A stretch of DNA of 63,977 bases, counting the filler, from an uncultured Acidimicrobiia bacterium (GTDB lineage: Bacteria; Actinomycetota; Acidimicrobiia; Spongiisociales; JAOTWH01): NCBI GenBank assembly GCA_964347285.1. It is 7 parts of 7 records of this genome, joined end to end, with 100 filler letters (N's around TTAATTAATTAA, not from the genome) between each part and the next. Parts side by side here need not be neighbours in the genome. Positions count along the whole stretch, not along the records: positions 41,000 to 50,496 come from CAYFYE010000093.1; 6 more parts are not named here. One strand, 5' to 3'. Every line of letters starts with the position of its first letter. Within the stretch, counting starts at the first letter, position 1. The position numbers are program-made. Below are positions 42,001 through 45,000 of this stretch, one piece after another.

Positions 42001-45000
42001 CGGAGGCGATGAGCTGATCGGAACCGCAACGCTCAGCCACGTCATCCCGGCCGGCCTGAAGATCCTCTCCCCGCAGGAAGAGGCGGTGCCGGGGATCACC
42101 GAGGTCGTCATCAGCTGGGATCCGGGACCGCAGCCCTCCGGCGTCGAGATCATCGGATACGAGGTCGTCGTGGAAACCGAACAGGACCCCCTCAGGGTCT
42201 TCAGCGTTCGAAACCTGCCGGCGGCCACCACCTCCGTGTCGGTGCCTGCCGAGTTCCTGGCCGGGGCCACCGCCTTCAAGTTCGAGGTGCTGGCCATCGA
42301 TGCCGGTGGCAACCAGACCATTACCGAGGGAGCCTTCGAGACTGTGTGATCAATATCGGCTCTGGGAGTGAGCACCACCAGAGCAGAACCCACCCGAGCC
42401 CTACCATGGCCCGATGCGGGCTTGGGTGCTCTTGTTCGATGTTGCGGCCGTGGTCCTGTTTGTGACGATCGGGCGTGATACGCATGATGAAGGTCTCGCC
42501 TTCGGCGGCATCATCGGCACCGCCGCCCCGTTCCTCATCGCCTTGATGGCCGGCTGGGCGGCAACCCGGGCCTGGCGCCGTCCCGCTTCGCTCCCCACGG
42601 GCGTCGGCACCCTGGCGGTGACACTGGCCGGCGGCATGCTGCTGCGCGGCACGGTCTTCGACGAGGGCACGGCTGGGGCCTTCATCGTCGTAACGGCTGG
42701 TTTCCTCGCACCGACCATGATGGGATGGCGGGTCGTCGCCTTCCTGGTCCTACGCGGCCGGCCGGCGGCTCGAGTCTTTGTTGGGAGGCGTTGAGCGCAG
42801 GGTCGACCGGGTCTTCACCGAGGGCGACACGGAGGCCGTCGTGGGGAGCGAGGCGCTCACCGTCAGGGCCACGGGAGAAACGGTTCGAGGGACGATTCGT
42901 ATACGTTGTCCGGTTCGGGGACAGGAAGATCATGGAGTGCGACAACCTCGAATCGGTCGGCGTCGGTGCTCGGGAACAGCAGCCAAGGCCGACGGCAGCC
43001 TCTAGTAGTCGAACGGGATGAGTTCGCCGCCGTGGCCGATGAGGAACACGTCCAGTTGCGACCAAGCGGCCGGGTCGCCACCCATCCCCGGTGAATCGGA
43101 CGGCATTCCGGGCACGGCGATCCCCACCGCATCGGGCCGCTCGGCGACGAGTCGGGCGATCGCTTCAGCGGGCACATGACCTTCGACGGCATAACCGCCG
43201 ACGAAGGCCGTGTGGCACGAGGCCGCCTCCGTTGGAATGCCCAGGTCGTTTCTCCTTTGCTCGAGGTCGGGATCGGCTTCCGCGACGACCGTCGCGCCGT
43301 GGTCGCGCATGTACGCGGCCCACTCTTCGCAGCAGCCTCAGCCAACCGCGTGGTGGATCTCCACACCGAGCCCGCTCAGGTCGGCCTCGTCCAGTTGCGT
43401 CGTTGGCGTTGTGTCGGCGGAGCCATTGCTACCGCCGCAGCCGGCGACGGCCAGCACGGAGCCGATCAGCAGGATCCCGGCCGCCCATCCGGCGTGGGAC
43501 CGTCGATGTCGATGCATATCGCGTCCTCGTGACTTGCGATGCACCGAGTCTGTTTATCGGCACGGGCCACGGGTAGGGCCTAAGGTCCCCTAAGGGACGC
43601 CCCATTGGGCGGACTGCTCCGAGCCATCTTCGTCGCGGGATCTCGTGAGACGTTGCTGGTCGACGCAGCGCCCGCATCGGAAACCGCCCTCACGAATGTC
43701 ACGAAGAGCCGATCTCCCTATCTGCGGCTTGGTCGGCAAGGCGGAAGGGGGCGAAGGGTGACGCTTCGACGGCTTCGTGATGCCCCGACCCTCACCGGTC
43801 CCACCGGCACGGCACCACCCACGGCTACGGCTACGGCTACGGCCGACGTTGTGAGACCTCCGCCGCACCCCTCATTGCACCTCTCGCCGTCCCTCCTCCG
43901 GCGGGACCCAGATGCGTGCCTCGGAAGCTCCCCGTTCGATGATGGAGAACCGGTTCCGTTCCACGTCCACCCACGGGCCGATCTCTCCGTCCGGCCACCG
44001 GACCCGGACCTCGGCCCCGTCGGCCGTCGCCAGTCCGAAGTGGATCCATCCGAGCTGTCCTCCAGCATGCCCGCCGCCGATCGTGAGCTCGCGTCGAGTG
44101 GTGCCGTCGCCCGTCCTCACCTCGATCCAGGCTCCGATGGCGTCACGGTTCGCACCCGGCTGCGCCAGGCGCAGCGCAATCCAGTTGCCCATCGGCTCGG
44201 GATCGGTATCGATGCCAAACCCGACATTCCGCCACAACCGGACGTTCTCACGGCGGTTCACCTCGACCAGGTCGAGCATGCCGTCGAGATTGAAGTCGGC
44301 CAGGGCGGCGCCCCGGCCCCGTCCGAGGCTGAGAATCCCGGCGGATCGAGCGCTCTCGGTGAACGTGCCGTCCGGATTGCCCAGCAGCAAATTGCTGGGG
44401 TCGTCGGCGGCGTAGTCGGCCTGAGCCTCGACGTTGCCCTTGGAGATGAAGAGGTCGACCAGGCCGTCGTTGTTGACGTCCTGGAACTCCGGGTGCCACG
44501 CGGTGGAGGGCTGCACCTCGTCGCCCACGAACGGGCGATGAGCGGTGACGCCTCGTCGGATGGCGATGTCTCCGTACGTAGGCCGTGAGGGGCCTTCGAC
44601 CAGGGTCTGCAGCTTGTTGTCGCCCTGGCTCGTCAGGAACACCTCGGGAAGCTCGTCACCCGTCAGATCCTGTGTGGCGATGCCCATCCCCCAGATCTGC
44701 ATTGCCTCCCAGCCGTCGGCGTCGGAATAGAGGCGCGGTGGCTCGCCCTCCTCGATGCGCCACAGCTGTTCTCCCCCCTCCAGGTAGTAGTGCCGGTCGT
44801 TGGTCATGCGCAGGTCGCGCCGGCCGGATGCGTTCCAGTCGCCGAAGAGCACCGAGAGGGTGCACAATCCGGGACTCAACTCTGTCGGTGGGCCGTACTC
44901 CCTCCCATCGGCGGCCGGTCGAAGCAGCTCGCTCGGGGCACAGGTGCGGGCCGGCTCGCCCGCCTTGGGGATGTTCAGGTAGTTGCCGAACGCCAGGGTG

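What a model noticed while it worked through the whole genome (the two positions that open the first line are those of the whole stretch)
43002..43517. Selenocysteine-containing CopG (DUF411) copper protein
Gene calls g02188 and g02187 are one gene read through an in-frame UGA. The product is a 171-aa lipoprotein-like CopG/DUF411 protein in which selenocysteine replaces the first Cys of the copper-cluster motif CxCC (here UGCC). DUF411/CopG is not among the 119 catalogued prokaryotic selenoprotein families, and the Sec form was found only in this order.
Evidence so far: Call 25: read-through translation puts U60 in H-A-V-G-U-G-C-C-E-E-W. Call 26: 51 of 401 genomes of the order have a match; of the 46 matches that reach the C-terminus (44-60% id, G000 included), 45 keep exactly one in-frame TGA and 1 (G174) has none. 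Call 27: in 12 of 12 fetched loci the TGA aligns in U-G-C-C. Call 130: 200 other Actinomycetota genomes hold 4 homologues, all without TGA. Call 30: aligns to P. aeruginosa CopG 6WIS (E 2e-23) with U on the first Cys of C-G-C-C. Call 29: Pfam DUF411, 9e-26. Calls 31, 185: a hairpin starts 17 nt after the UGA in 8 of 12 loci, with changes on both sides of the stem (GUGG..CCAC vs CUGG..CCAG; GGCCGCG/CGCGACC vs GGUCGG/CCGACC); the other 4 loci have [...]
(Added by a program. Inside this text positions count along the whole contig: they may not be those of the stretch shown here. "Call 12" and the like, gene names such as g00115 and contig names such as C1 are that model's own, and its searches are not shown. 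The text may have been shortened before it was handed on; [...] marks where a part breaks off. The agent that wrote the report below was given it as the finding of a first reader that could run no searches.)

Follow-up and report, generated by a model that had tools for sequence, protein, structure and literature searches.

The report
Selenocysteine form of copper protein CopG
One gene, wrongly split in two by gene callers, encodes an exported copper-handling protein (CopG/DUF411) in which a UGA codon almost certainly inserts selenocysteine at a key cysteine position; this would be a selenoprotein family absent from the catalogues checked.

Summary
Window 43517..43002 (minus strand) is one 171-codon frame with a single in-frame TGA (43340..43338). 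It encodes a lipoprotein-like CopG/DUF411 protein whose CxCC motif reads U-G-C-C.

Selenocysteine insertion is strongly supported:
- The genome has selA, selB, selD and tRNA-Sec.
- In 401 genomes of the order, 45 of 46 full-length homologues keep exactly this TGA, at 44-60% identity.
- Full-length Cys forms exist, up to 61% identical.
- TGA also ends many of these same genes, so the codon is not reassigned.
- Synonymous sites are frozen over hairpins directly after the UGA. The hairpins show compensatory changes.

- The Sec form is not confined to this order. It also occurs in Chloroflexota: 20 of 25 strong matches in 301 genomes of one class.
- The loci said to lack the hairpin have a shorter, nearly invariant hairpin starting at the same nucleotide.

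DUF411 is absent from the 119-family table of a 2026 review and from the BSepDB supplement.

Not shown: Sec in the protein (no proteomics), which hairpin binds SelB, and the copper function, which is inferred from homology. The gene neighbourhood is not conserved.

I rate it a new member of a known kind.

The parts
43002..43517 (-). Whole coding sequence of the Sec-containing CopG/DUF411 lipoprotein: 171 aa plus stop TAG at 43004-43002. An alternative GTG start lies at 43544.
   Evidence: translation with TGA=U; Pfam; PDB 6wis.
43524..43528 (-). Shine-Dalgarno-like GAGGA, 7 nt upstream of the ATG.
   Evidence: Read from the sequence. Inference only.
43437..43517 (-). Signal peptide ending in the lipobox V-A-G-C (Cys27).
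   Evidence: The lipobox Cys is invariant in alignment A1. All 30 order loci have an L/V-x-x-C lipobox upstream of the TGA. No signal-peptide predictor was run.
43338..43340 (-). In-frame UGA, read as selenocysteine (U60).
   Evidence: It aligns with the first Cys of CGCC in 6wis and with Cys in 18 full-length homologues.
43329..43340 (-). U-G-C-C motif, the counterpart of CopG's CxCC copper-cluster motif. U60 and C63 also make a UxxC.
   Evidence: In the model the motif lies between strand E60-65 and helix H71-81, P0001 numbering.
43299..43323 (-). Hairpin 1, the candidate SECIS: nt 18-42 counting the U of UGA as 1. Lower stem GUGG/CCAC. In this window the upper stem is CGCGU/GCGCG, in a register of its own.
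43282..43295 (-). Hairpin 2: nt 46-59, a 5-bp stem GCGAC/GUCGC with loop GGUC.
   Evidence: 100% paired in 9 sequences, one compensatory synonymous change; synonymous sites frozen; the flanking codons are free.
43083..43223 (-). Pfam DUF411 core. It holds the invariant S-C-H, G-H-V-P and G-M-P-x4-P-G-M-G (the M-x6-M pair).
   Evidence: residues 108-154 of P0001; invariant columns.

Best explanation
Window 43517..43002 (minus strand) is a single gene for an exported, lipid-anchored CopG/DUF411 protein with a thioredoxin-like fold. Its one in-frame UGA is recoded to selenocysteine by the genome's own SelA/SelB/SelD/tRNA-Sec system. Recoding is directed by an mRNA hairpin that starts 14 nt after the UGA (hairpin 1, loop about 25 nt downstream) and is followed by a second conserved hairpin.

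[quoted passage not shown] In the fold this position corresponds to the N-terminal, nucleophilic Cys of a thioredoxin CxxC (U-x-x-C).

The protein most likely works outside the cytoplasmic membrane as a copper-binding Cu(I)/Cu(II)-thiol oxidoreductase or copper buffer. The selenolate would give a softer, more acidic and more re-reducible ligand or nucleophile than a thiolate.

Shown here: one frame, the conserved UGA, Cys orthologues, the Sec machinery, the constrained hairpins, and the CopG fold and ligand set. Inferred: actual Sec insertion, which hairpin binds SelB, export, copper binding and the redox role.
For: (1) Machinery in the same genome. selB 298.7 bits and selA 416.1 bits lie adjacent on C14. 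selD scores 394.6 bits and itself has one TGA. tRNA-Sec scores 75.3 bits and ARAGORN calls it SeC with anticodon tca. An FdhA-like gene has the classic SCNRT-U-HAPS.

(2) Conservation. 45 of 46 full-length homologues in 401 genomes of the order keep one TGA. 29 of 30 loci have it at U-G-C-C, with no indel afterwards. 19 of those 30 genes end in TGA, so TGA is still a stop.

(3) Sec/Cys pairs. 18 full-length database homologues, up to 61% identical, have Cys there. G174 has TGT.

(4) RNA element, window's type (A). The hairpin-1 helix is 89% paired with 2 compensatory pairs, against 28-55% paired when the partners are slid. With hairpin 2 added: 94% paired, 3 compensatory pairs, reached by 3 of 500 shuffles. 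The share of synonymous codon pairs that differ is 0.18 over hairpin 1 and 0.125 over hairpin 2, against 0.56 in codons 20-111. The linker codon between the hairpins differs in 23 of 28 pairs.

(5) RNA element, type B. Codons +5 to +9 are invariant at synonymous sites in 22 loci. Among 44 unique Sec forms: GTC 41/44, TAC 44/44, codon +8 NNG 44/44. In 11 Cys forms with the same residues these sites are mixed.

(6) Family. Pfam DUF411 1e-25. 6wis 2.5e-23. The AF2 domain has pLDDT above 90, and the top five Foldseek hits are CopG 6wis/6wje with TM 0.81-0.83 and rmsd 1.6-2.3 A. CxCC, S-C-H, G-H and M-x6-M are invariant.

(7) 40 of 42 genomes with the TGA form have a selA match. The two without are 79% and 72% complete.

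(8) In one Chloroflexota genome selD lies next to the Sec-CopG gene.
Against: - There is no protein-level evidence of Sec.
- The 76 nt after the UGA fold no better than shuffles (z -0.33).
- RNAalifold finds no structure common to all 30 loci and none in the Chloroflexota group.
- The window's own hairpin 1 departs from the type-A register at 3 of 8 pairs and needs an alternative upper stem.
- Covariation rests on single sequences (L022, L023).
- Hairpin 2 has a G-U-containing loop but lies further from the UGA than the hairpins of selD and the FdhA-like gene in this genome. So which element is the SECIS is open.
- No Rfam family matches.
- selA is present in 346 of 401 genomes of the order, so its co-occurrence discriminates little.
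- The Cys forms used as the codon-usage contrast mostly come from other phyla. The three Cys forms inside the clade keep the hairpin.
- Copper function: the neighbourhood is not conserved. A heavy-metal P-type ATPase is adjacent in only 5 of 45 related loci and there is no cop gene in the window.
- In R. capsulatus the CxCC and Met motifs of CutG were dispensable for the phenotypes tested (PMC8456105, passages read).
Confidence: 0.85

Rival explanations
1. The TGA is a real stop. The locus is two genes, or a decaying gene: a short signal-peptide ORF and a separate C-terminal DUF411 fragment, as the gene callers have it.
For: Table 11 gives two ORFs. Most of the 120 best-listed database hits are 102-108-aa proteins that start after the TGA. 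That only shows how gene callers treat the locus.
Against: The frame is continuous with no indel in 30 of 30 loci at 44-60% identity. The upstream part keeps a lipobox and a conserved motif in frame. Stopping would split the CxCC motif and leave the domain without an export signal. Type-B genes have no Met near the break. Cys forms are single ORFs.
Confidence: 0.03
2. The UGA is read through, but not as Sec: by near-cognate suppression (Trp or Cys) or by a reassigned code.
For: No direct evidence on the residue inserted. The fold energy after the UGA is unremarkable.
Against: TGA ends 19 of the 30 homologous genes themselves, so it is not reassigned. The position is an invariant Cys in the homologues, which is the standard Sec/Cys signature. 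A complete Sec machinery and other selenoprotein genes are present. RNA-level constraint directly after the UGA is what a SECIS predicts.
Confidence: 0.04
3. Sec is inserted, but the SelB-binding element of the window's gene is hairpin 2 (loop GGUC), or the two hairpins act as one composite SECIS. Hairpin 1 would then serve as a spacer rather than being the SECIS itself.
For: Hairpin 2 is 100% paired in 9 of 9 sequences, with a compensatory change made of two synonymous substitutions. Its synonymous sites are the most frozen of the gene. Its loop starts with G-G-U, as the loops of selD (GUG) and the FdhA-like gene (GUAUU) start with G-U. The window's hairpin 1 is imperfect.
Against: The loop of hairpin 2 lies at nt 51-54. 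The loops of selD and the FdhA-like gene lie at nt 37-39 and 34-38, and that of hairpin 1 at about nt 28-33. Type-B genes have only the first hairpin, at the same start. I recall, but did not check, that published bacterial SECIS models place the loop 16-37 nt after the UGA.
Confidence: 0.25
4. The protein is a Sec-dependent thiol/selenol oxidoreductase or binder for something other than copper, for example another soft metal or a disulfide substrate in the cell envelope.
For: The neighbourhood is not a cop operon. Haem or cytochrome proteins lie nearby in 6 loci. UxxC at the N-cap of helix 1 is the usual redox arrangement of thioredoxin-fold selenoproteins (review PMC13188914, section 7 read).
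Against: All residues reported as copper ligands in CopG are invariant: CxCC and the two Met. The nearest solved structures are CopG only; thioredoxins score E > 0.05. A heavy-metal P-type ATPase is adjacent in 5 loci, one with an HMA domain.
Confidence: 0.2

Closest known systems
CopG / CutG (Pfam DUF411, PF04214; P. aeruginosa CopG, PDB 6WIS/6WJE)
   Same: Thioredoxin-like fold (TM 0.81-0.83). 99 residues align without a gap. The CxCC position, S-C-H, G-H-V-P and M-x6-M are conserved. It is extracytoplasmic by its signal sequence.
   Different: The first Cys of CxCC is encoded by UGA (Sec). It is lipoprotein-anchored in a monoderm-type actinobacterium rather than periplasmic and soluble. It is mostly not in cop/cus/cueO clusters.
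Thioredoxin-fold UxxC selenoproteins (Sec forms of Trx, Grx, DsbA-like and thiol:disulfide interchange proteins, as listed in PMC13188914 Table 1)
   Same: Sec sits at the N-terminal position of a U-x-x-C, in the loop before helix 1 of a thioredoxin-like fold. Cys-containing orthologues exist. A SECIS-like hairpin lies just after the UGA.
   Different: The motif is U-G-C-C, with an extra Cys and Met/His ligands that bind copper in the homologue. The family is not in that table. No NCBIfam selenoprotein model matches.
Predicted metal-handling selenoproteins (SO_0444 family Cu/Zn efflux transporter UxC, cation-transporting ATPase UxxC, CopZ-family 2Fe-2S proteins, mercuric transport protein; PMC13188914)
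   Same: Sec is placed in a soft-metal-binding Cys motif of a metal-resistance or transport protein.
   Different: A different fold and family. In CopG the motif bridges a multinuclear copper cluster.

Membership tests
CopG / DUF411 (PF04214) | Pfam model matched above the gathering score | tested here: met
   89.6 bits against a cut-off of 27, E 1e-25.
CopG / DUF411 (PF04214) | Thioredoxin-like fold as in 6WIS | tested here: met
   AF2 domain pLDDT above 90. Foldseek top 5 are 6wis/6wje: E 1.4e-10 to 6.9e-10, TMt 0.81-0.83, rmsd 1.6-2.3 A.
CopG / DUF411 (PF04214) | CxCC motif that binds the tetranuclear Cu cluster (review PMC7558416, passage read) | tested here: met
   The motif is present in register as U-G-C-C. 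The second and third Cys are kept. The first is Sec rather than Cys, a conservative chalcogen swap.
CopG / DUF411 (PF04214) | Two conserved Met (M-x6-M) that ligate a further Cu (PMC8456105, passages read) | tested here: met
   M147 and M154 (P0001 numbering) are invariant in 19 of 19 sequences.
CopG / DUF411 (PF04214) | Copper binding and Cu oxidoreductase activity | not testable with these tools
   Needs purified protein.
CopG / DUF411 (PF04214) | Genetic linkage to copA / cus / cueO copper genes | tested here: inconclusive
   None in the window. A P-type ATPase is adjacent in 5 of 45 related loci.
Bacterial selenoprotein | In-frame UGA conserved among orthologues | tested here: met
   45 of 46 full-length matches in the order. 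29 of 30 loci at the same codon.
Bacterial selenoprotein | Cys-containing homologues aligned at the UGA | tested here: met
   18 database proteins, G174 and 66 genome loci.
Bacterial selenoprotein | selA, selB, selD and tRNA-Sec in the same genome | tested here: met
   all above the curated cut-offs.
Bacterial selenoprotein | SECIS hairpin in the coding sequence just after the UGA | tested here: met
   Hairpins with compensatory changes and frozen synonymous sites (type B). Caveats: the fold is not better than shuffles and no curated model matches. SelB binding was not tested.
Bacterial selenoprotein | Selenium found in the protein | not testable with these tools
   No proteomic or labelling data. 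No RNA run is listed either.

The most novel reading that the evidence does not exclude
Sec-CopG would be a natural protein in which a selenolate is a ligand of a multinuclear copper cluster. The Sec state occupies two well-separated clades, Acidimicrobiales and a Chloroflexota class, which fits separate Sec/Cys switches in the two phyla. The Sec and Cys states have switched repeatedly within one clade. In that reading selenium tunes extracellular copper redox chemistry in abundant aquatic and soil bacteria. Recoding would use SECIS elements of different architecture within one family: a minimal 6-bp hairpin, a long hairpin, and a tandem pair.
Probability: 0.4. Interest if true: 0.75.

Novelty: new member of a known kind. 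Interest (0 to 1): 0.62.

Why it matters
- It adds a family to the prokaryotic selenoproteome that current catalogues and annotation models miss. As a result the gene is routinely truncated in public data: most of the best database hits are 102-108-aa stubs.
- It links selenium use to copper handling at the cell surface in lineages common in water and soil metagenomes. About 10% of sampled Acidimicrobiales-type genomes and about 6% of one Chloroflexota class carry it.
- The many natural Sec/Cys pairs within one clade make a ready-made system for testing what Sec contributes to a metal cluster.
- The sharply localised synonymous constraint gives clean SECIS examples from two phyla whose SECIS elements I have not seen described (recalled, not searched).

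Tried and rejected
- RNAalifold on all 30 order loci and on the 9 Chloroflexota Sec loci gave no common structure. I therefore analysed the hairpin types separately.
- The single-sequence fold z-score was uninformative.
- Rfam at E <= 10 gave only chance-level matches and no SECIS.
- selA co-occurrence is not discriminating because selA is nearly universal in the order.
- Neighbourhood analysis found no conserved operon.
- Sequencing runs: no RNA holder listed.
- The primary CopG structure paper (Hausrath et al. 2020) is not held. Its ligand assignments are taken from passages in PMC7558416 and PMC8456105.
- Regex parsing dropped some loci:
  - L018 and L020 from the tree (motif SMP instead of GMP).
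  - L136.
  - 7 of the 80 genome-contig loci.
  - 2 of the 80 metagenome loci.
- L020 was left out as a near-copy of L018.
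Full report
THE OBSERVATION

On the minus strand, window 43517..43002 is one reading frame of 172 codons interrupted only by a TGA at 43340..43338. Read with TGA=U it gives a 171-aa protein from the ATG at 43517, which has a GAGGA 7 nt upstream. A GTG at 43544 would add 9 residues; the stored protein P0001 uses that start, so U60 is U69 in P0001 numbering. 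Under table 11 the frame falls apart into ORFs 43338..43544 and 43002..43310.

The N-terminus is a basic stretch, a hydrophobic stretch and V-A-G-C, a lipoprotein-type signal. This is read from the sequence; no predictor was run.

WHAT THE PROTEIN IS

- Pfam gives DUF411 at 1e-25, 89.6 bits against a cut-off of 27.
- The only solved relative is P. aeruginosa CopG (6wis/6wje). It scores E 2.5e-23, 99 residues align without a gap, and U lies on the first Cys of C-G-C-C.
- An AlphaFold2 model built on a 19-sequence alignment has pLDDT above 90 through the domain. Its five best Foldseek hits in the PDB are the CopG chains (E 1.4e-10 to 6.9e-10, TM 0.81-0.83, rmsd 1.6-2.3 A). Everything after them is thioredoxin or glutaredoxin at E > 0.05.
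- In the alignment with 18 full-length homologues, these columns are invariant: the lipobox Cys, the three positions of CxCC, S-C-H, G-H-V-P and G-M-P-x4-P-G-M-G.
- From passages read in a review (PMC7558416) and a paper on R. capsulatus CutG (PMC8456105): CopG is a periplasmic thioredoxin-like protein. [quoted passage not shown] It is proposed to act as a Cu oxidoreductase and contributes to copper resistance under anaerobic conditions. The primary structure paper is not held.
- In the model U sits in the loop between the first strand and the first helix. That is the place of the N-terminal Cys of a thioredoxin CxxC, and U60-x-x-C63 forms a UxxC.

IS THE UGA SELENOCYSTEINE?

- Machinery. The same genome (G000, 90.5% complete) has selB and selA side by side. 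It has selD, which itself carries one TGA in G-A-G-U-A-C-K. It has a tRNA-Sec at 75.3 bits, called SeC/tca by ARAGORN. It also has an FdhA-like gene with S-C-N-R-T-U-H-A-P-S.
- Conservation in the order. In 401 genomes of the order, 54 have a match. Of the 46 matches that run to the C-terminus (44-60% identity), 45 have exactly one TGA and one (G174) has none.
- Position. In the 30 loci fetched, the TGA (29 loci) or TGT (G174) is at the same codon. The 112 codons from there to the stop have no indel. Every gene has a lipobox upstream in frame. 19 of the 30 genes end in TGA. So TGA is a normal stop in these organisms and is recoded at this one place.
- Cys forms. The protein database holds 2548 relatives. 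The full-length ones I fetched (18 aligned, up to 61% identical) all have Cys at that position. Most of the 120 best-listed hits are 102-108-aa stubs that start at the first Met after the UGA, which are truncated calls of further Sec forms.
- selA co-occurrence. selA is present in 346 of 401 genomes of the order. This tally includes five genomes flagged unpublished (G004, G016, G249, G195, G279), none of which has a CopG match. Of the 42 genomes with the TGA form, 40 have a selA match. The other two are 79% and 72% complete. This is consistent but not discriminating.

THE RNA ELEMENT

Positions below count the U of UGA as nt 1.

Two hairpin types start at the same nucleotide, nt 18.

Type A: the window and 8 other sequences.
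- Hairpin 1 is a helix of nt 18-25 with nt 35-42. It is 89% paired, against 28-55% when the partners are slid. It has two compensatory pairs: G-C to C-G in L022 and G-C to U-A in L023. 9 of 500 shuffles reach that value.
- The window's own copy keeps the lower four pairs but forms its upper stem in another register.
- Hairpin 2 follows at nt 46-59, with a 5-bp stem and loop GGUC. It is paired in 9 of 9 sequences. Its one compensatory change is made of two synonymous substitutions.
- The strongest evidence is synonymous-site constraint among 8 type-A genes:

| Region | Share of same-residue codon pairs that differ |
|---|---|
| Hairpin 1 (codons +5 to +13) | 0.18 |
| Hairpin 2 (codons +15 to +18) | 0.125 |
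| Linker codon +14 | 23 of 28 |
| Codon +19 | 21 of 28 |
| Codons 20-111 | 0.56 |

Type B: 22 of the 30 order loci and most metagenome Sec forms.
- It is a 6-bp hairpin with a 5-nt loop (GUGGGU / CGKGU / ACCURC).
- Synonymous sites are invariant there: GTC 22/22, GGG 19/19, TAC 22/22. Normalised codon entropy is 0.29-0.38 there, against 0.7-0.85 elsewhere.
- Over 44 unique Sec forms with the same residues: GTC 41/44, TAC 44/44, codon +8 NNG 44/44. The 11 Cys forms with those residues are mixed: GTC 3, TAC 6.
- Caveat: most of those Cys forms come from other phyla, and the three Cys forms within the clade keep the hairpin.

Comparison and weak points.
- In the genome's bona fide selenoprotein genes, the apical loops start with G-U at nt 37 (selD) and nt 34 (FdhA-like).
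- The loop of hairpin 1 (about nt 28-33) fits that spacing better than hairpin 2 (nt 51-54). Hairpin 2 has the more typical loop. Which one binds SelB is open.
- The plain fold energy is not better than shuffles (z -0.33).
- There is no consensus structure across the types.
- No Rfam family matches.

DISTRIBUTION: A CORRECTION

- In a sample of 301 genomes of the phylum, only 5 others have a homologue, all without TGA.
- Among the best 80 of 601 relatives in the species-representative genomes, 7 have TGA, 66 have a Cys codon and 7 could not be parsed.
- Six of the TGA forms are Actinomycetota: titles name Ilumatobacteraceae, Acidimicrobiaceae and Acidimicrobiia. The seventh is an Ardenticatenaceae MAG (Chloroflexota). 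It has a lipobox upstream and T-P-T-U-G-C-C-G-D-W.
- That genome has selA (584 bits) and a tRNA-Sec (66.4 bits).
- In 301 genomes of its class, 25 matches are strong (E <= 1.9e-43). 20 of them have one TGA (one also has a TAA) and 5 have none.
- In 11 parsed loci of that class, 9 have TGA at U-G-C-C and 2 have Cys.
- In one of them selD lies directly beside the gene.
- A tree of 129 domains, with the Sec/Cys column masked, puts 33 Sec and 17 Cys forms interleaved in one Acidimicrobiia-type clade (SH-aLRT 99). The 9 Chloroflexota Sec forms sit elsewhere, next to Cys forms. The fewest state changes are 9, and well-supported branches force at least 3. The root is not known, so gains and losses cannot be told apart.
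- In 78 parsed metagenome loci, 24 are Sec forms.

CONTEXT

The window has no cop operon. The neighbours are DUF3054, an FG-GAP/ASPIC protein, a DUF6851/VCPO-like protein, a PLP decarboxylase and an RND pump.

In 45 related loci the neighbourhood is not conserved. A heavy-metal P-type ATPase is adjacent in 5 loci (L026, L048 with an HMA domain, L052, L131, L135). Haem or cytochrome proteins are nearby in 6. The copper role therefore rests on homology and the intact ligand set.

IS IT KNOWN?

- Full-text searches: DUF411 plus selenoprotein gave 0 papers. CopG plus selenocysteine gave 20 papers, none relevant by title or abstract. 'Copper resistance protein' with selenoprotein or in-frame UGA gave 160 papers holding at least 2 of the 3 terms; none of the 12 listed contained 'copper resistance protein'.
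- I read Table 1 of the 2026 review of the prokaryotic selenoproteome (PMC13188914, section 7 parts 1-2). It lists 119 families and no PF04214/DUF411/CopG.
- The BSepDB paper and its one held supplement (4.0 M characters) contain none of DUF411, PF04214, CopG or copper.
- The main texts of the deep-Sep and GOS papers do not contain the copper/DUF411 terms searched (DUF411 and copper in both; CopG in deep-Sep only). Their supplements were not read.
- No NCBIfam model above its cut-off matches either Sec form.

VERDICT

This is a real, single gene for a Sec-containing CopG. The Sec reading is about as well supported as comparative genomics allows. The SECIS assignment is good but not resolved between two hairpins. 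The copper function is inferred.

Noticed in passing
G000:C9:24865-25794 (L009), outside the window: selD of this genome is itself a selenoprotein (G-A-G-U-A-C-K). It has a 7-bp hairpin with loop GUG at nt 30-46 after the UGA.
   Followed up: partly
G000:C22:11696-12253 (L219), outside the window: An FdhA-like molybdopterin enzyme with S-C-N-R-T-U-H-A-P-S. It scores below the TIGR01553 cut-off. The hairpin after the UGA has apical loop GUAUU at nt 34-38.
   Followed up: partly
L132:277-1272 (minus strand), genome G408: In one Chloroflexota genome selD (358 bits) lies directly next to the Sec-CopG gene on the same strand.
   Followed up: partly
L046, L047, L048, L050, L051, L052; P0021: Several homologues have twin-arginine-like motifs (R-R-x-F/L) in their lipoprotein signal peptides. 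This suggests Tat export of a folded, possibly metal-loaded protein. The window's signal has R-R but a weaker motif.
   Followed up: no
L048, L142, L148, L150, L152, L153, L155: A sub-group of Sec forms reads U-S-C-C instead of U-G-C-C.
   Followed up: no
G120, G119, G023 (order); G408 (Chloroflexota): Some genomes carry two Sec-CopG copies. In G023 both lie on one contig about 2 kb apart.
   Followed up: no
window 1-10759 and from 41000: The window is a concatenation of contigs of a 187-contig MAG. Positions 1-10759 are contig C87. The CopG gene is on C93, which starts at window position 41000.
   Followed up: partly
window 45560-47578 (minus strand) and 43872-45989 (minus strand): A DUF6851 / vanadium-haloperoxidase-like (VCPO_2nd, PAP2) protein lies next to an FG-GAP + ASPIC/UnbV protein, directly upstream of CopG on the same strand.
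   Followed up: no
L127-L138 (Chloroflexota Sec forms): Folding finds no shared hairpin after the UGA. The first 18 nt after the UGA (G-C-C-G-D-W codons) are strongly conserved, including at synonymous sites. Their SECIS remains unidentified.
   Followed up: partly
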